This document shows positions 43,641 to 49,009 of a DNA stretch of 64,000 nucleotides, one piece after another. Within the stretch, counting starts at the first letter, position 1, and each line of letters starts with the position of its first letter. This stretch comes from Akkermansiaceae bacterium. Its GTDB lineage: Bacteria; Verrucomicrobiota; Verrucomicrobiia; Verrucomicrobiales; Akkermansiaceae. Both the position numbers and the translations under genes were made by a program. Location of the stretch: assembly GCA_045106535.1 (NCBI GenBank), contig JBGCEU010000024.1, positions 1,438 to 65,437 of the forward strand, given 5' to 3'. The notes under the pieces were generated by a model. That model saw only the letters and a list, made by a program, of their open reading frames with translations. It did no database searches and was not told where the DNA came from.

Positions 43641-44171
43641 ATGGAAACTAACACTACATTTCCACCTTTTGCCGTCTCGCCTGAAATCGAGGCGGAGGCC
43701 GACGAACGCATCAGCCACTACCCGGACGACCAAAGACGCTCCGCAGTTTTACCCCTGCTGCACATCGTCCAGCACAAGTTTGGCTTCATCAATCCCGAAG
43801 CCACTGAATGGGTCGCGCAGAAGCTCGATCTCAAAGCCATGCAGGTATACGAGGTCGTCTCCTTCTACCCAGGTTTCCGCGAACACGCCCCCGGCAAGTT
43901 CCACTTCCGCATCTGCCGCACGCTTTCATGTGCCATGGCAGGCTCTGCCGAGCTGATGGATCGCATTTGCGAACTCACCGGGATCGACCGATCTAACAGT
44001 GACTCTCACCACAATCCGATTGCCGTTTCGCCTTGCGGAAAATGGTCAGTCGAATTCGCCGAGTGCCTTGCCTCCTGCGGCACCGGCCCAGTCTGCATGG
44101 TCAACGATGATTTCCACGAAGCCGTGGCATCCGACAAGGCCGAGGAGCTCCTTGCTCAGTATAACGACTAA
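43641..44171 (+). CDS. nuoE: NADH-quinone oxidoreductase subunit E
   Basis: SAVLPLLH, VVSFY, CRTLSC...ECLASCGTGP. Confidence 0.95.
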   Translation: METNTTFPPFAVSPEIEAEADERISHYPDDQRRSAVLPLLHIVQHKFGFINPEATEWVAQKLDLKAMQVYEVVSFYPGFREHAPGKFHFRICRTLSCAMAGSAELMDRICELTGIDRSNSDSHHNPIAVSPCGKWSVEFAECLASCGTGPVCMVNDDFHEAVASDKAEELLAQYND

Positions 44172-44182
44172 TTTTTTCTCCC

Positions 44183-45577
44183 ATGTCAGAAATCACTTAC
44201 CTCCCCGGCAAAGAGCCAGACGCGCGCGAGCACCGTCTTATTTTCAAGAATATTGATCGCAAGGGCTGGGATCCTTCAATCGACTGCTATCTCAACGACG
44301 GCGGATACGATCAGCTGAAAAAGGCGATCAAGATGGAGCCGGGCGACATCACCAATGAGGTCAAGGCATCCGGACTGCGCGGTCGTGGTGGAGCAGGATT
44401 CCCGACAGGTGTAAAGTGGGGCTTCATCCCGCCTAACAACACCAAACCCGTTTACCTTATCTGCAACTGCGATGAGTCCGAGCCTGGCACGTTCAAGGAC
44501 CGATACATCGTGCACCAAGACCCACACCAGCTCATCGAGGGCATGGTAATTTCAGCTTTTGCTGTCGGCGCTCATATCGCTTATATTTACATGCGCGAAG
44601 AATTCCCCGAGGCCGCCATCCTTATGGAAAAGGCGATCGAGGAAGCACGTGAGAAGAATTTCGTCGGATCTAACATCCTTGGCACTGGCTTCGATCTTGA
44701 AATTTACGTCCACCGTGGAGCTGCTGCCTACATTTGCGGTGAGGAAACTGGTTTAATCGAATCCCTCGAGGGCAAACGCCCTTACCCCCGAATCAAACCA
44801 CCTTATTTCCCCGCCGCTCTCGGACTCTACATGGCGCCCACGATCGTCAACAATGTCGAGTCACTATGCCACGTCAAACACATCATCGAGATGGGCGGCG
44901 AGGAGTATGCCAAGCTCGGCACACCTCGAAATACTGGCACACGCATCCTCTGTGTATCAGGCGACGTTAAAAAACCTGGCTACTACGAAGTAGAGGTCGG
45001 AAAAATCACCATGGGCGAGCTGCTCAACGACGTTTGTGGTGGACCACTCGACGGTAGAACGTTCAAAGCCTGCATCCCCGGCGGATCATCCGCGAAAATC
45101 CTCCGCTGCGATGAGACGTTCAAAATAGGAAAAGGCGACGACGCCAAAGAACTTGGTTTTTACGACATCCCGATGGACTTCGATACCATGGCGGCCTGCG
45201 GCTCAATGGCTGGCTCCGGTGGTGTCATCGTCATGGACGATTCACGCAAGATGTCATGGGTGCTCAACAACATCAACCACTTCTACGCACACGAGTCCTG
45301 TGGCCAGTGCACGCCATGCCGAGAAGGCTCCATGTGGATGCGCAAGATTTCCGACCGTATCGTCGATGGCAAAGCCACACCCGAAGACATCCAGACCCTC
45401 GAAGACGTCGCCTATCAGATCGATGGCCGCACCGTCTGTGCCTTCGGTGAAGCCGCTTCATGGCCCGTCGAGGCAATGATTGCCAAATTCCGCGACGAAC
45501 TGACCGAAGAAACATCCGAGGACAACGAATACCTATCCGAGGAAGCAAAACGCCAGCTCAAGTACATCAGCAGCTAG
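44183..45577 (+). CDS. nuoF: NADH-quinone oxidoreductase subunit F
   Basis: SGLRGRGGAGFPTG, NCDESEPGTFKDR, YICGEETGL, ESCGQCTPCREG. Confidence 0.97.
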   Translation: MSEITYLPGKEPDAREHRLIFKNIDRKGWDPSIDCYLNDGGYDQLKKAIKMEPGDITNEVKASGLRGRGGAGFPTGVKWGFIPPNNTKPVYLICNCDESEPGTFKDRYIVHQDPHQLIEGMVISAFAVGAHIAYIYMREEFPEAAILMEKAIEEAREKNFVGSNILGTGFDLEIYVHRGAAAYICGEETGLIESLEGKRPYPRIKPPYFPAALGLYMAPTIVNNVESLCHVKHIIEMGGEEYAKLGTPRNTGTRILCVSGDVKKPGYYEVEVGKITMGELLNDVCGGPLDGRTFKACIPGGSSAKILRCDETFKIGKGDDAKELGFYDIPMDFDTMAACGSMAGSGGVIVMDDSRKMSWVLNNINHFYAHESCGQCTPCREGSMWMRKISDRIVDGKATPEDIQTLEDVAYQIDGRTVCAFGEAASWPVEAMIAKFRDELTEETSEDNEYLSEEAKRQLKYISS

Positions 45578-45585
45578 TTTCTCAG

Positions 45586-45615
45586 ACAGAATTAACAGAA
45601 TTTTTCAGAATTTAC
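45586..45615 (+). repeat. Left arm of a 30-bp perfect inverted repeat flanking the GxxExxY gene
   Basis: ACAGAATTAACAGAATTTTTCAGAATTTAC. Confidence 0.92.
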
Positions 45616-45620
45616 CAAGC

Positions 45621-46037
45621 ATGAGTAAGCCAGAAACGAAGTATGACCTGACAGGCCAAGTGATTGGCTGCGCGATGGTGGTGCACCGTAAACTCAGCCA
45701 TGGTTTTAATGAGAATGTTTATAAAAACTCGCTCGCTATCGAACTCCGGAAAAAAGGGTTCGGGTGTGTGGTGGAGAAAAAAATCAAAGTATTCTACAAA
45801 GGATTCGTGGTCGGTGATTTCTCAGCTGATATCGTTGTCAACGATGTCCTCATTATCGAACTCAAGGCTGTCACCAACCTGCTCCCTGCTCATGAAGCCC
45901 AGCTCGTGAATTACCTCACAGCCACCGACTCAGAAGAGGGATTACTCCTCAACTTCGGTGCCCCAAGCCTCCAATACAAAAAGAAATTTAAAGACTTCAA
46001 ACCCAAATCAACAGAACCGCCAATACTTCAGAGCTAA
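45621..46037 (+). CDS. GxxExxY protein (PD-(D/E)xK-like)
   Basis: HGFNENVY (GxxExxY), ADIVVNDVLIIELKAV, AQLVNYLTAT..EEGLLLNFG. Confidence 0.93.
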   Translation: MSKPETKYDLTGQVIGCAMVVHRKLSHGFNENVYKNSLAIELRKKGFGCVVEKKIKVFYKGFVVGDFSADIVVNDVLIIELKAVTNLLPAHEAQLVNYLTATDSEEGLLLNFGAPSLQYKKKFKDFKPKSTEPPILQS

Positions 46038-46051
46038 CAATAGCAACCCAA

Positions 46052-46081
46052 GTAAATTCTGAAAAATTCTGTTAATTCTGT
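46052..46081 (-). repeat. Right arm of the 30-bp inverted repeat
   Basis: GTAAATTCTGAAAAATTCTGTTAATTCTGT is the exact reverse complement of 45586-45615. Confidence 0.92.
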
Positions 46082-46097
46082 ATAAAAAACGCTTCCC

Positions 46098-47837
46098 ATG
46101 TCCGATTCTGAAACCAAACAACTCCCAAGAGACCTCGCCGCTGAAAAGGGCATGGTCAATGTGCAGATCGATGGCCACTGGATTCAGGTGCCGCGTGGCA
46201 CAAGGATGATCGAGGCTTGCAAGATTGCCGAAAAGGAAGTCCCCCACTACTGCTATCACCCGAAGCTTTCCTCTCCAGGAAACTGCCGGATGTGCCTGGT
46301 GCAGATGGGTATGCCACCTCGTCCAGCTCCGGGGGAAGACCCGAAGTATGGTGACGATGGTTTTCAGGAAATTGGCTGGATGCCCCGCCCCGTCATCGCT
46401 TGCGCAAACACCGTCGGTGAAAACATGGGAATTCGCACCTCCGGTGAGCTTGTCGAAAAATGCCGCGAAGGCGTGATGGAGTTTCTGCTCATCAACCACC
46501 CGCTCGACTGCCCGATCTGCGACCAAGCTGGCGAGTGCCGACTTCAGGAGTTCTCCGTCGAGCACGGCAAAGGCAAATCAAGATTTAAAGAAGACAAGAT
46601 CAAGAAGCCGAAGAATGTCAAAATCGGACCACGTATTCGGTTAGACGACGAGCGCTGCATCATGTGCTCGCGCTGCATCCGCTTTATGGACGAAGTGGCG
46701 GACGATGCCGTGTTAGGATTCTCCGAGCGTGGCACGCACACATCCGTCGGCATCTTCCCCGGCAAAGAACTTACGAACAACTACGGACTCAACACCGTGG
46801 ATCTCTGCCCGGTCGGAGCTCTTACCTCGAATGATTTCCGTTTCCAGATGCGCACGTGGTTCCTCAAGGAAACCGACAGCATCGACACTAACTGCGGCAC
46901 GGGTGCGAACATCACCATCTGGACACGCGGCAACAAAGTATTCCGAATCACCCCGCGTCAGAACGATGAGGTCAACTCATGCTGGATGCCGGACTCACAC
47001 CGTTTGAATTACGTCTGCCCAACGGACGAGGATCGCCTAACAGCTTGCCTTATCAAAGCAGACGGCGTGCATGAAGAAACTTGCTGGGAGAATGCTCTCG
47101 AAGCTGCTGCTGATGCGCTCAAACAATTCGATGCCAGTGAGATTGCGGTAATCGGGTCAGGCCGCCAAACGAACGAGGAACTGTTCATGATGCGCGCCCT
47201 TGCTGCTGAAATCGGCACCGACAAAATTAGTATCGTATCGCGTGTAGAAGATTCAGATGACATGCTCATTTCATCCGACCGTAATCCTAACACCAACGGA
47301 GCGAAACTCGTATTAGGGTTCGATGATCCTACAGGGAATCTCGAATCCATACGCTCAGGCAATATCAAAGCTATCGTTGTTGCAAATGAAGATCTTACCG
47401 AAGCTGCTGGCTTCACCCAGGAAGACTTGGATGCTCTTGAGCTAACCATTTCGCTCAACAGCAGCGCCAACGCCACCGCCCAGGCAAGCGATATCGTATT
47501 TCCTACCGCCTCCCCCGCCGAAAAGCGTGGCAGCATGATCAACGTGAGTGGCCGACTGCAAAAGCTCAACGCCGCCTGCATTCCTCCGGGTGATGCGCGT
47601 GTCGACTGGGAAGCCATCCGCGATCTCATCCTAGCAATCTCCGGTGAAACCGCCAACGAAGCGCCTCAAAGTATCGACCAGCTCTCCGGTATCATCGCCG
47701 AAAGTGTTGATGAGCTAAAAAGCCACACGCTCGCTAAGATTCCCGCCAATGGCATCAGCGTCATCGATACAGGGGTCTCGATCCCTCTGATTGAGCGTGA
47801 AAACCAGCGCAAAGCCAACGGCGAAATCGTCGGCTAA
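46098..47837 (+). CDS. nuoG: NADH-quinone oxidoreductase subunit G (short form)
   Basis: HYCYHPKLSSPGNCRMC, INHPLDCPICDQAGECRLQ, ERCIMCSRCIRF, DLCPVGAL. Confidence 0.96.
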   Translation: MSDSETKQLPRDLAAEKGMVNVQIDGHWIQVPRGTRMIEACKIAEKEVPHYCYHPKLSSPGNCRMCLVQMGMPPRPAPGEDPKYGDDGFQEIGWMPRPVIACANTVGENMGIRTSGELVEKCREGVMEFLLINHPLDCPICDQAGECRLQEFSVEHGKGKSRFKEDKIKKPKNVKIGPRIRLDDERCIMCSRCIRFMDEVADDAVLGFSERGTHTSVGIFPGKELTNNYGLNTVDLCPVGALTSNDFRFQMRTWFLKETDSIDTNCGTGANITIWTRGNKVFRITPRQNDEVNSCWMPDSHRLNYVCPTDEDRLTACLIKADGVHEETCWENALEAAADALKQFDASEIAVIGSGRQTNEELFMMRALAAEIGTDKISIVSRVEDSDDMLISSDRNPNTNGAKLVLGFDDPTGNLESIRSGNIKAIVVANEDLTEAAGFTQEDLDALELTISLNSSANATAQASDIVFPTASPAEKRGSMINVSGRLQKLNAACIPPGDARVDWEAIRDLILAISGETANEAPQSIDQLSGIIAESVDELKSHTLAKIPANGISVIDTGVSIPLIERENQRKANGEIVG

Positions 47838-47884
47838 CACCTCCTTTCCCTCATTTTTCATTCCTTCAATTATTCATTCAGATA

Positions 47885-49009
47885 ATGGATCCATTTCTCA
47901 TCCTCGTCCTCAGCACTGCGGTAAAGATCTTTATCTTTACCTTCGTGTTGACGCTCCCGATCATTGCCTACTCGACCTATGCCGAGCGCCGCGTGTCATC
48001 GATCATTCAGGATCGCGTGGGTCCTAACAGGGTGGGCATTCCGATGACGCTTTTTGGGTTCAAAAAAGACATTCCAATCTCCGGTCTACTCCAGCCGCTA
48101 GCTGATGGTCTAAAAAATCTACTTAAAGAGGATCTAGTGCCCGACCACGTGAGGAAGTTTTTCTTCACTATCGCTCCCGCACTCACTGCTGTTCCAGCTT
48201 TCCTAACTCTATGCGTGATTCCCTTCGGAAGTGAGATCACCATCTTCGGTGAGAGCATAAAGTTAGTCATCGCGGACATCGATGCCGGGCCACTCTTCGT
48301 ATTCGCCATAGCCTCTCTCTCAGTTTACGGTATCACTTTTGCGGGTTGGGCATCGAACAACAAATACTCATTCCTAGGTGGCGTGCGCTCATGCGCCCAA
48401 ATGATTTCCTACGAAATTGCTTTGGGACTATCCGTTATCCCTGTGCTGATGGTCTTTGGTCAGCTGAATCTCTCCGACATCGTCCAGTATCAAGCGGACA
48501 ACGGCTGGCTGCTCTTACCACTCTGGGGCGAGGGCCTGACTACAGAGAGAATGCTGCTGCTCATTCCGCTCTTCATTTCCTTCGTGGTATTTACCACTTC
48601 GATCTTCGCAGAAACAAACCGGATGCCATTTGACCTTCCTGAGTGTGAAACGGAGCTCGTTGGTGGTTATCACACCGAGTATTCCTCGATGAAATTCGCC
48701 CTCTTCTTCCTCGGGGAATATGCCGCCATGATCGTTGGGTCGGCCCTGATCGTCACCCTCTTCTTCGGTGGTTGGTCAATAGGATTTGGTGCTGATGCCG
48801 CCGTTTCAGAAATGGCATTTGGCGGACTGATTCATCTCGGCGTATTTCTCGCCAAAGTCATCGCATTCGTTATCTTCTTCATCTGGGTGCGCTGGACTGT
48901 CCCCCGCTTCCGTTACGACCAGCTCATGAAACTCGGATGGGTCGTCTTTTTCGAACTCGCTCTCGTCAACATCTTCCTCACCGCCGGCATCATGATGCTG
49001 GTTAAGTAA
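47885..49009 (+). CDS. nuoH: NADH-quinone oxidoreductase subunit H
   Basis: ERRV...QDRVGPNRVG, LQPLADGLK, AQMISYE, ETNRMPFDLPECETELVGGYHTEYSS, PRFRYDQLM. Confidence 0.97.
   Translation: MDPFLILVLSTAVKIFIFTFVLTLPIIAYSTYAERRVSSIIQDRVGPNRVGIPMTLFGFKKDIPISGLLQPLADGLKNLLKEDLVPDHVRKFFFTIAPALTAVPAFLTLCVIPFGSEITIFGESIKLVIADIDAGPLFVFAIASLSVYGITFAGWASNNKYSFLGGVRSCAQMISYEIALGLSVIPVLMVFGQLNLSDIVQYQADNGWLLLPLWGEGLTTERMLLLIPLFISFVVFTTSIFAETNRMPFDLPECETELVGGYHTEYSSMKFALFFLGEYAAMIVGSALIVTLFFGGWSIGFGADAAVSEMAFGGLIHLGVFLAKVIAFVIFFIWVRWTVPRFRYDQLMKLGWVVFFELALVNIFLTAGIMMLVK

What the first reader, a model, noticed from the sequence alone, without database searches (positions are those of the whole stretch)
45586..46081. 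GxxExxY nuclease-like gene bracketed by a perfect 30-bp inverted repeat, inserted between nuoF and nuoG
Seen: a 496-bp unit with arms ACAGAATTAACAGAATTTTTCAGAATTTAC, each built from three CAGAATT units at 9-10 bp spacing. The left arm ends 5 nt before the ATG. The insert is more AT-rich than nuoF/G, sits cleanly between genes and shows no target-site duplication. Established: GxxExxY proteins are a widespread uncharacterised PD-(D/E)xK-like family, not a known transposase. Inference: a minimal mobile or selfish cassette whose protein recognises its own iterated repeats. Alternatively, since both arms are in the nuo mRNA, they could pair to loop out the gene and affect processing of the polycistron.
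Basis: partly seen in the sequence, partly recalled or inferred. Interest (0 to 1): 0.75.

Follow-up and report, generated by a model that had tools for sequence, protein, structure and literature searches.

The report
Repeat-framed GxxExxY nuclease cassette in nuo operon
A small nuclease gene framed by two inverted arrays of a phased 7-base repeat sits between nuoF and nuoG; it is one example of a widespread insertable cassette not found described in the searched literature, built like the intervening sequences of 23S rRNA, and its repeat is also scattered through this genome.

Summary
A perfect 30-bp inverted repeat (39 nt at 92%) brackets a 138-aa GxxExxY/PD-(D/E)xK gene between nuoF and nuoG. 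Each arm holds three CAGAATT units 9-10 bp apart.

The arms are not private to the cassette. About 22 copies lie in this genome, as gene-less hairpins and as solo arms that point at the start codon of the next gene.

In related genomes the nuoF-nuoG junction is empty, or holds a GxxExxY cassette from either of two clades, a decayed one, a solo arm, or a different cassette. That one is a PF05635 "23S rRNA IVS" four-helix-bundle gene with GTAGCTG arms.

Twenty-five of 30 sampled GxxExxY genes (26 after one ORF correction) have inverted arms of iterated units. The unit sequence follows the protein clade. Arms stay 28/29 identical where synonymous sites are saturated. Cassettes are co-oriented with their host operons.

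Best reading: a promoterless, repeat-associated nuclease cassette. It resembles REP/RAYT and Ssn/NTS systems in logic and an rRNA IVS in build, and its protein probably reads its own phased repeats. Movement, cleavage and RNase III processing are inferred, not shown. It is a new variant of known kinds, and this scan has flagged the class many times before.

The parts
44183..45577 (+). nuoF (upstream host gene). Its stop codon TAG at 45575-45577 touches the base of the extended stem.
   Evidence: Pfam Complex1_51K 2.7e-47 and NADH_4Fe-4S
45577..45615 (+). Left arm. The perfect part is 45586-45615, with three CAGAATT units at 45587-93, 45596-602 and 45606-12. The outer end is TTTCTCAGACAG.
45621..46037 (+). 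GxxExxY gene, a 138-aa PD-(D/E)xK nuclease fold. It carries the motif GFNENVY (G28-E31-Y34) and the D70 / E80-x-K82 residues.
   Evidence: PF13366 and TIGR04256 matches. Invariant H22 E31 Y34 E41 D70 E80 K82 in 40 homologues. AF2 model pLDDT 89.7; Foldseek hits to lambda exonuclease, Cas4 and Hjc. pN/pS about 0.17 against the G003 orthologue.
46044..46052 (+). Inner right-end motif CAACCCAAG. It also marks the inner border of solo and hairpin copies here and of the 65-bp unit in G023.
46052..46090 (+). Right arm. The perfect part is 46052-46081, with three AATTCTG units followed by TATAAAAAAC. It ends 7 nt before the nuoG ATG.
46098..47837 (+). nuoG (downstream host gene)
   Evidence: Pfam Fer4_Nqo3, NADH-G_4Fe-4S_3 and Molybdopterin

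Best explanation
This is a roughly 0.5-kb promoterless single-gene cassette. An intact PD-(D/E)xK (GxxExxY) nuclease gene is framed by two inverted arrays of three phased CAGAATT sites, inserted in sense orientation in the nuoF-nuoG spacer and transcribed with the nuo operon. It belongs to a large class of hairpin-bounded cassettes whose cargo is either a GxxExxY nuclease or a PF05635 four-helix-bundle protein. That class has the same build as ORF-bearing 23S rRNA intervening sequences. I propose that the arms are sequence-specific binding or cutting sites for the encoded protein: 7-mers one helical turn apart, with conserved units and free spacers. By acting on these sites the protein would maintain and spread the cassette, its ORF-less hairpin derivatives and its solo arms, as in REP/RAYT and Ssn/NTS systems. 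In the polycistronic RNA the arms can pair into a 30-39 bp duplex. By analogy with IVSs this duplex is a likely RNase III substrate, which would release the cargo mRNA and separate nuoA-F from nuoG-N. Shown here: the anatomy, the dispersed repeat family, site polymorphism, arm-clade covariation, arm sequence constraint, sense orientation and the association of gene with repeat copy number. Inferred: protein-arm recognition, the mobilisation chemistry and RNase III processing.
For: (1) Anatomy and protein family are confirmed.
(2) About 22 arm copies lie on 19 contigs. Some are hairpins that keep inner cassette sequence (CCAAGCATGA, AACCCAAG), which marks them as deletion derivatives.
(3) The nuoF-nuoG junction is empty in G014, G017, G004 and others. 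It is filled by GxxExxY cassettes in G000, G003, G020 and G051, by a pseudogene in G011, by solo arms in G022 and G001, and by a PF05635 cassette in G010, G007 and G023.
(4) The same CAGAATT cassette type sits at nuoG-nuoH in G010 and G023. Related cassettes lie at rplT-pheS and kpsF-efp in metagenomes.
(5) 25 of 30 GxxExxY loci have significant inverted arms, 26 after one ORF correction. All 6 PF05635 genes of this genome show arms of iterated units by eye, 3 of them with z > 6 against shuffles.
(6) The tree shows that arm unit type follows protein clade, and the nuoF-G occupants fall in two clades.
(7) Between G000 and G003, ORF pS is 0.75 and nuoF pS is 0.60, yet the arms are 28/29 identical. 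The units are kept at 58% protein identity while the spacers vary. The outer end TTT[AG]GACA is kept in other phyla.
(8) Where the flanking genes are co-directional, 26 cassettes are sense and 2 antisense. No sigma70-like promoter or plus-strand terminator lies inside.
(9) Arm copy number is associated with the cognate gene within the genus: Fisher p=0.005, MWU p=0.002.
(10) A solo arm in rpsG-fusA is unique to G000 among the 29 of 30 congeners whose spacer could be read.
(11) The RNA fold pairs the arms, z=-4.9, and an RNase III gene is present.
(12) Precedents in print: the Coxiella IVS (428 nt, 28-bp stem, RNase III-cut; PMC4990558) and Ssn nucleases flanked by the repeats they cut (PMC11893778).
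Against: No target-site duplication and no recognisable transposase chemistry were found. The PF05635 cassettes have the same build but no nuclease, so the cargo protein need not be the mobilising enzyme. Arm-protein covariation is partly expected from physical linkage alone. G029 has 9 arms but no cognate gene. The G000/G003 cassettes are as diverged as their host genes, so movement is old and slow, and nothing was seen to move between near-identical strains. Solo arms all point at start codons (9 of 9 between co-directional genes), which could mean a host-level role instead. Gene calls in the loci are simple ORF heuristics, and most genomes are draft MAGs.
Confidence: 0.6

Rival explanations
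1. A purely RNA-level element. The arms matter only as a long duplex in the nuo transcript, for RNase III processing, mRNA stabilisation or translational insulation, and the encoded protein has no relation to the repeats.
For: A 30-39 bp stem is predicted. There is strong sense-orientation bias and no internal promoter. The IVS precedent shows RNase III excision (PMC4990558), and an RNase III gene is present.
Against: A stem needs only complementarity, yet the 7-mer units are conserved in sequence while spacers drift. Solo arms without a partner are the commonest form. Arm type tracks protein clade, and copy number tracks the cognate gene.
Confidence: 0.15
2. A domesticated host system. The GxxExxY protein is a sequence-specific factor that acts on a set of CAGAATT sites placed in the 5' leaders of housekeeping genes (pgk, atpD, fusA, aspS, nuoG and others). 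It could act as a regulator, or modulate DNA uptake or recombination as Ssn does. Its own gene would simply be flanked by two such sites.
For: 17 of 22 arms are followed within 6-65 nt by a long ORF's start, and 9 of 9 solo arms between co-directional genes point the A-run at the downstream ATG. The ORF is under purifying selection. The Ssn precedent shows a host phenotype (PMC11893778).
Against: The repeat is absent from most congeners, and the genes next to it mostly differ between G000, G003, G010, G023 and G029. Unrelated arm types pile up in the same spacers. Pseudogenes and remnants are present. G029 keeps arms without the gene.
Confidence: 0.2
3. A chance palindrome or an assembly artefact.
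For: None beyond the genome being a draft MAG.
Against: A perfect 30-bp inverted repeat is far beyond chance. The same architecture is seen in independent assemblies and in orthologous loci.
Confidence: 0.01

Closest known systems
ORF-bearing intervening sequences (IVS) of 23S rRNA (Coxiella burnetii helix-45 IVS; Leptospira IVS)
   Same: An element of about 0.45-0.5 kb with one small ORF between terminal inverted repeats that form a stem of 28 bp or more. It is transcribed as part of a host RNA, is sporadically distributed, and is AT-richer than the host (PMC4990558). The PF05635 IVS protein occupies this very nuoF-nuoG site in three congeners.
   Different: This one sits in an mRNA operon spacer, not an rRNA helix. 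Its cargo is a PD-(D/E)xK nuclease, not the four-helix bundle. Its arms are phased iterated 7-mers that are also dispersed through the genome. RNase III excision is not shown.
REP / RAYT (REPIN) systems
   Same: A single-copy gene is flanked by inverted copies of a short repeat that is also scattered in the genome as singles and doublets, and gene and repeat family co-occur. This genome holds a true RAYT with REP flanks for comparison (contig C202).
   Different: The enzyme is PD-(D/E)xK, not an HUH/Y1 transposase. Each arm is three direct phased 7-mers, not a GTAG-headed palindrome. Copy numbers are tens, not hundreds.
Ssn nucleases and their NTS/SRM repeats (Chenal et al. 2025, PMC11893778)
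   Same: A small nuclease gene is framed on both sides by the dispersed repeat it recognises. Repeat and gene co-occur across genomes, and repeat variants track nuclease variants.
   Different: Ssn is GIY-YIG and its repeat is a hairpin cut as ssDNA. Here the fold is PD-(D/E)xK, the repeats are phased 7-mers, and no activity has been measured.
Heptamer tandem repeats of Xanthomonas (GGGAATC) and cyanobacteria (STRR)
   Same: These are intergenic iterated 7-mers. They are often found as convergent inverted pairs and inside operons, and their function is unknown (PMC4692102).
   Different: No link to a cargo gene was drawn in that paper. Here the repeat spacing is 9-10 nt and the arms frame a gene.

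Membership tests
GxxExxY protein (TIGR04256 / Pfam PF13366 PDDEXK_3) | Profile score above the curated cut-off | tested here: met
   125.5 bits against a cut-off of 22; 132.3 bits against 35
GxxExxY protein (TIGR04256 / Pfam PF13366 PDDEXK_3) | GxxExxY motif plus D...ExK catalytic residues on a PD-(D/E)xK fold | tested here: met
   GFNENVY is present. E31, Y34, D70, E80 and K82 are invariant in 40 homologues. The AF2 model has pLDDT 89.7, and Foldseek hits lambda exonuclease, Cas4 SSO0001 and Hjc.
GxxExxY protein (TIGR04256 / Pfam PF13366 PDDEXK_3) | Nuclease activity | not testable with these tools
   The family function is listed as unknown (PMC3424549). No solved structure was found by sequence.
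23S rRNA intervening sequence (ORF-bearing IVS) | Inserted in an rRNA helix | tested here: not met
   It lies between nuoF and nuoG.
23S rRNA intervening sequence (ORF-bearing IVS) | Terminal inverted repeats forming a long stem around one small ORF | tested here: met
   A 30-39 bp stem and a 138-aa ORF
23S rRNA intervening sequence (ORF-bearing IVS) | ORF of the PF05635 (S23p / four-helix-bundle) family | tested here: not met
   The ORF here is PF13366. PF05635 fills the same site in G010, G007 and G023.
23S rRNA intervening sequence (ORF-bearing IVS) | Excision from the transcript by RNase III | not testable with these tools
An RNase III gene is present.
REP/RAYT (REPIN) system | HUH Y1 (IS200/IS605-like) transposase | tested here: not met
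   The protein is PD-(D/E)xK.
REP/RAYT (REPIN) system | Gene flanked by inverted copies of a repeat that is dispersed as singles and doublets | tested here: met
REP/RAYT (REPIN) system | Each repeat unit is itself an imperfect palindrome | tested here: not met
   The arms are three direct CAGAATT units.
Ssn / NTS repeat-associated nuclease | GIY-YIG nuclease domain | tested here: not met
   PF13366 was the only Pfam match.
Ssn / NTS repeat-associated nuclease | Repeat copy number associated with presence of the cognate gene across genomes | tested here: met
   Fisher p=0.005 and MWU p=0.002 in 31 congeners. The exception is G029.
Classical IS / MITE transposon | Target-site duplication and a recognised transposase | tested here: not met
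   No direct repeat lies outside the arms. The only ORF is a 138-aa nuclease fold.
Homing-endonuclease-type selfish gene | Repeated independent occupation of one conserved site, with empty alleles in relatives | tested here: met
   nuoF-nuoG is occupied by two GxxExxY clades and by a PF05635 cassette, and is empty elsewhere.
Homing-endonuclease-type selfish gene | Cleavage of the empty site by the encoded enzyme | not testable with these tools

The most novel reading that the evidence does not exclude
GxxExxY proteins are sequence-specific readers and cutters of phased 7-mer arrays. Together with their arms they form a minimal autonomous mobile element of a new kind that targets stop/start junctions of housekeeping operons. 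The PF05635 four-helix-bundle cassettes (including the rRNA IVSs) would be a parallel branch. The solo arms left behind would become part of the translation-initiation regions of many essential genes.
Probability: 0.25. Interest if true: 0.8.

Novelty: new variant of a known kind. Interest (0 to 1): 0.6.

Why it matters
PF13366/TIGR04256 is a very large family with no known function; it is listed as "Unknown" in the PD-(D/E)xK census (PMC3424549). This locus gives a concrete, testable substrate: three CAGAATT units one helical turn apart. It also gives cognate and non-cognate arm sets from sister clades, so specificity can be tested by swapping arms. It links three unexplained phenomena: ORF-bearing rRNA intervening sequences, orphan four-helix-bundle and GxxExxY genes wedged inside operons, and iterated heptamer repeats. 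If the protein is a programmable, repeat-specific small nuclease it would also be of practical interest, as the Ssn enzymes are.

Tried and rejected
- Database searches with no result: Rfam had no match in 44000-48000. PADLOC had no defence-system match for either cargo protein. PHROGs matched only Avd of DGRs, for the PF05635 protein. PDB by sequence found nothing.
- Literature: searches on 'four helix bundle' and on STRR were mostly noise. 'GxxExxY' occurs in only 3 papers, and the passages read in two of them do not describe this architecture.
- Arms as a sigma70 promoter: considered and rejected. There is no scan hit, the distance from arm to ATG varies, and arms of sister cassettes have unrelated sequences (GTAGCTG, TCGAATA, CCAGTT, CACGGAT), so they cannot all be promoters.
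- The GCCTGCGGCGC module as an independent target repeat: rejected. It occurs with arms and otherwise only as scattered matches to a shortened core, some visibly inside coding sequence.
- Recent horizontal transfer between G000 and G003: rejected. Synonymous sites of the ORF are as saturated as those of nuoF.
- Automatic detection of inverted repeats failed for one locus because the ORF was mis-called (L038). This was corrected by hand.

Full report
**Observation.**
- Positions 45586-45615 and 46052-46081 are perfectly complementary over 30 nt. Pairing extends to 45577-45615 / 46052-46090, 39 nt at 92%.
- Each arm holds three CAGAATT units spaced 9 and 10 nt. A two-unit pattern is expected 0.06 times in the window and occurs only at these two places.
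- The arms enclose one ORF, 45621-46037 (138 aa), which starts 5 nt after the left arm. It matches PF13366 PDDEXK_3 (1.7e-36) and TIGR04256 GxxExxY (9.7e-39).
- The neighbours are nuoF and nuoG.
- The insert has about 45% GC against 54-55% in the flanks.
- It contains no sigma70-like promoter and no plus-strand terminator. I saw no target-site duplication.

**The protein.** In 40 homologues H22, E31, Y34, E41, D70, E80, K82, Q94, N97 and Y98 are invariant. These include the GxxExxY motif and a D...ExK triad. An AlphaFold2 model (pLDDT 89.7) is a minimal PD-(D/E)xK core. Its nearest solved folds are lambda exonuclease, Cas4 SSO0001, an uncharacterised restriction-endonuclease-like protein and Hjc, at TM about 0.5. 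No solved structure matches by sequence. The published census lists the family's function as unknown (PMC3424549). Against the orthologue in G003, pN is 0.125 and pS is 0.75, so the gene is under purifying selection.

**The arms are a dispersed repeat.** The window's genome (G000, 236 contigs) holds about 22 copies of the arm on 19 contigs.
- Five places are short ORF-less hairpins: C143, C193, C35, C122 and C174. Some of them keep sequence from just inside the cassette ends (CCAAGCATGA, AACCCAAG), so they look like internal-deletion derivatives.
- Most copies are solo arms. 17 of 22 are followed within 6-65 nt by the start codon of a long ORF, including pgk, atpD, fusA, aspS, nuoG, queA, rpe and xthA.
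- All 9 solo arms that lie between co-directional genes point their A-run at the downstream ATG.
- The outer end has two flavours, TCTAAAAAA and TCCAGCGCCGCAGGC. The second occurs with arms and otherwise only as scattered matches to a shortened core, some visibly in coding sequence.

**The site in relatives.** G003 is an Oceaniferula MAG by its record title. Among the 30 genomes of that genus and other families of the order, the nuoF-nuoG junction takes several states:
- empty, 3-40 bp, in G014, G017, G004, G019, G018, G009 and others;
- a GxxExxY cassette with CAGAATT or CAGGATT arms in G000, G003, G020 and G051;
- a decayed GxxExxY gene with arms in G011;
- a solo right arm in G022 and a solo left arm in G001;
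- a different cassette in G010, G007 and G023: a 117-120 aa PF05635 "23S rRNA intervening sequence protein" (7.9e-35) between inverted runs of GTAGCTG.

CAGAATT cassettes also sit between nuoG and nuoH in G010 and G023, and a CAGGATT cassette sits upstream of nuoF in G041. On a protein tree the nuoF-nuoG occupants fall in two clades, interleaved with cassettes from other sites. Counting the PF05635 cassette, the junction has therefore been occupied at least three separate times. In G017 the junction is empty while a cognate cassette sits on another contig.

**Generality.**
- Of 30 GxxExxY loci from 61 relatives, 25 have flanking inverted repeats with z of at least 4.6 against shuffles, or 26 after correcting one mis-called ORF.
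- The arms are built from two to four iterated 7-10-nt units, and the unit differs between loci (CAGAATT, CACGGAT, CACGGAAG, GCGAAT, CATCTGTG, GCAGAG, CAAGAAG, GCTAAG and others).
- The unit type follows the protein clade.
- The six PF05635 genes of this genome all show arms of iterated units by eye. Three of them reach z > 6 against shuffles. One lies between sucC and sucD.
- Homologues in metagenomes lie at rplT-pheS, kpsF-efp and CbiX-DR2241, with CAGAAT/CAAAAT arms.
- The outer end TTT[AG]GACA recurs in Spartobacteria, Bacteroidaceae, Victivallales and KSB1 relatives.
- Where the flanking genes are co-directional, 26 cassettes are in sense and 2 in antisense orientation.

**Constraint on the arms.** Between G000 and G003, synonymous sites are saturated (ORF pS 0.75, nuoF pS 0.60). 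The inner spacers differ, yet the 29-nt arm cores differ at one position. At 58-59% protein identity (G010, G023) the CAGAATT units are unchanged, while the spacers between them vary in sequence and length. Conserved 7-mers at a spacing of one helical turn, with free spacers, are what an array of protein-binding sites looks like. A requirement for RNA pairing alone would tolerate compensatory change.

**Association and turnover.** In the genus, arm counts are 18, 12, 28, 6, 1, 0 and 1 in the seven genomes with a cognate gene (at least 52% identity). Elsewhere the maximum is 9 and most genomes have 0 (Fisher p=0.005, Mann-Whitney p=0.002). G029 has 9 arms and no cognate gene. The genes next to arms mostly differ between G000, G003, G010, G023 and G029, with a few shared sites (nuoE, fabV, one other). 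In rpsG-fusA a solo CAGAATT arm is present only in G000 among the 29 congeners whose spacer could be read. G007 has a solo arm of the GCTACCC type in the same spacer. G023 has amplified a 65-bp unit 28 times: CAACCCAAG, the arm, then TCTAGCGCCGCAGGCATCAACCCAAG.

**Mechanism proposed.**
- *Shown:* cassette anatomy, dispersed derivatives, site polymorphism, recurrent occupation, arm-clade covariation, arm sequence constraint, sense orientation, and association of gene with repeat number.
- *Inferred:* (a) the cassette has no promoter and is read through from the nuo promoter; (b) the encoded nuclease recognises the phased units of its own arms and, by cutting there, maintains or spreads the cassette and its derivatives, as in REP/RAYT and in Ssn/NTS (PMC11893778); (c) in the RNA the arms pair (z=-4.9) into a duplex long enough for RNase III, whose gene is present. 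This would parallel the Coxiella IVS, a 428-nt element with a 28-bp stem and an S23p ORF that is cut by RNase III (PMC4990558).

The PF05635 cassettes lack a nuclease, so the chemistry of movement may be supplied by the host. I found no target-site duplication.

**Rivals.**
- A purely RNA-level role for the arms does not explain the unit conservation, the solo arms or the association with the gene.
- A domesticated regulon would explain the strict orientation of solo arms towards start codons. It does not fit the patchy distribution, the changing target genes, the pseudogenes or the piling-up of unrelated arm types in one spacer.
- The rivals are not exclusive. Solo arms may have been retained because they became part of the downstream gene's initiation region.

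**Comparison and novelty.** The thing works like a repeat-associated nuclease system and is built like an rRNA IVS. It fails defining features of each: it has no HUH or GIY-YIG enzyme, its units are not palindromic, and it is not in rRNA. In the searched library 'GxxExxY' occurs in three papers. The two mentions I read do not describe this architecture, and the third hit was not listed separately and may be the PMC copy of one of them. The heptamer-repeat paper on Xanthomonas and Nostoc does not mention the IVS protein (no text match to 'S23' or 'intervening').

Earlier notes of this scan report the same class in about 160 genomes. One later check there reports 62% of 2,274 PF13366 loci between inverted repeats and names Ssn as the nearest system in print. 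Those are leads, not evidence, but my own sample agrees with them.

I rate this a new variant of known kinds. What this window adds is a hot-spot series with empty, filled, decayed and alternative-cargo states, a clear measure of arm constraint, and the oriented solo arms.

**Limits.** Most genomes are draft MAGs. The flanking genes in loci were called by ORF heuristics. The tree has several weak nodes. No transcript or biochemical data could be obtained.

Noticed in passing
G000 contig C121:1940-2530 (outside the window): A second GxxExxY gene (120 aa) is flanked by inverted arms of CATCTGTG-type units and is followed at once by an ORF-less hairpin of the same units. Its orthologous type in G010 (L107) has the same arm units.
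   Followed up: partly
G000 contig C134:26793-27200 (outside the window): A PF05635 four-helix-bundle gene with CCAGTT-unit inverted arms is wedged exactly between sucC and sucD. Five more PF05635 genes (C48, C8, C113, C191, C219) each have their own unit.
   Followed up: partly
G000 contig C202:12729-13452 and C148:7630-8045 (outside the window): A true RAYT (IS200-like Y1 transposase, 150 aa) lies between 57-nt inverted REP flanks. A decayed second copy is also present, and GTAGAAGAGCTTT... and TATGGAGTGCGGG... REP-like hairpins occur elsewhere in the genome.
   Followed up: partly
G023 loci L116-L141: 28 copies of a sharply bounded 65-bp unit (CAACCCAAG, then a CAGAATT-type arm, then TCTAGCGCCGCAGGCATCAACCCAAG). 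They often lie next to solo arms of other families (TTCGCG..., CCGTG...). The flanking CAACCCAAG on both sides could be a target duplication or part of the element.
   Followed up: partly
L167, L169, L166 (metagenome homologues): The arms overlap the coding sequence. In these loci the N-terminus (MNKMDKM..., MNKINYD...) or the C-terminus (...NSVNFVNSV*) of the GxxExxY protein is encoded by the repeat units themselves.
   Followed up: no
nuo operons of G003, G010, G014, G029, G041: The nuo operon is peppered with these elements: arms upstream of nuoE in G003 and G010 and probably in G029 (start codon context only), and PF05635 genes downstream of nuoG in G003, G014 and G041.
   Followed up: partly
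L200 (G007 rpsG-fusA spacer): A solo GCTACCCAGCTACCC arm (the type that frames the PF05635 cassette) lies upstream of fusA. G000 has a CAGAATT solo arm in the same spacer.
   Followed up: no
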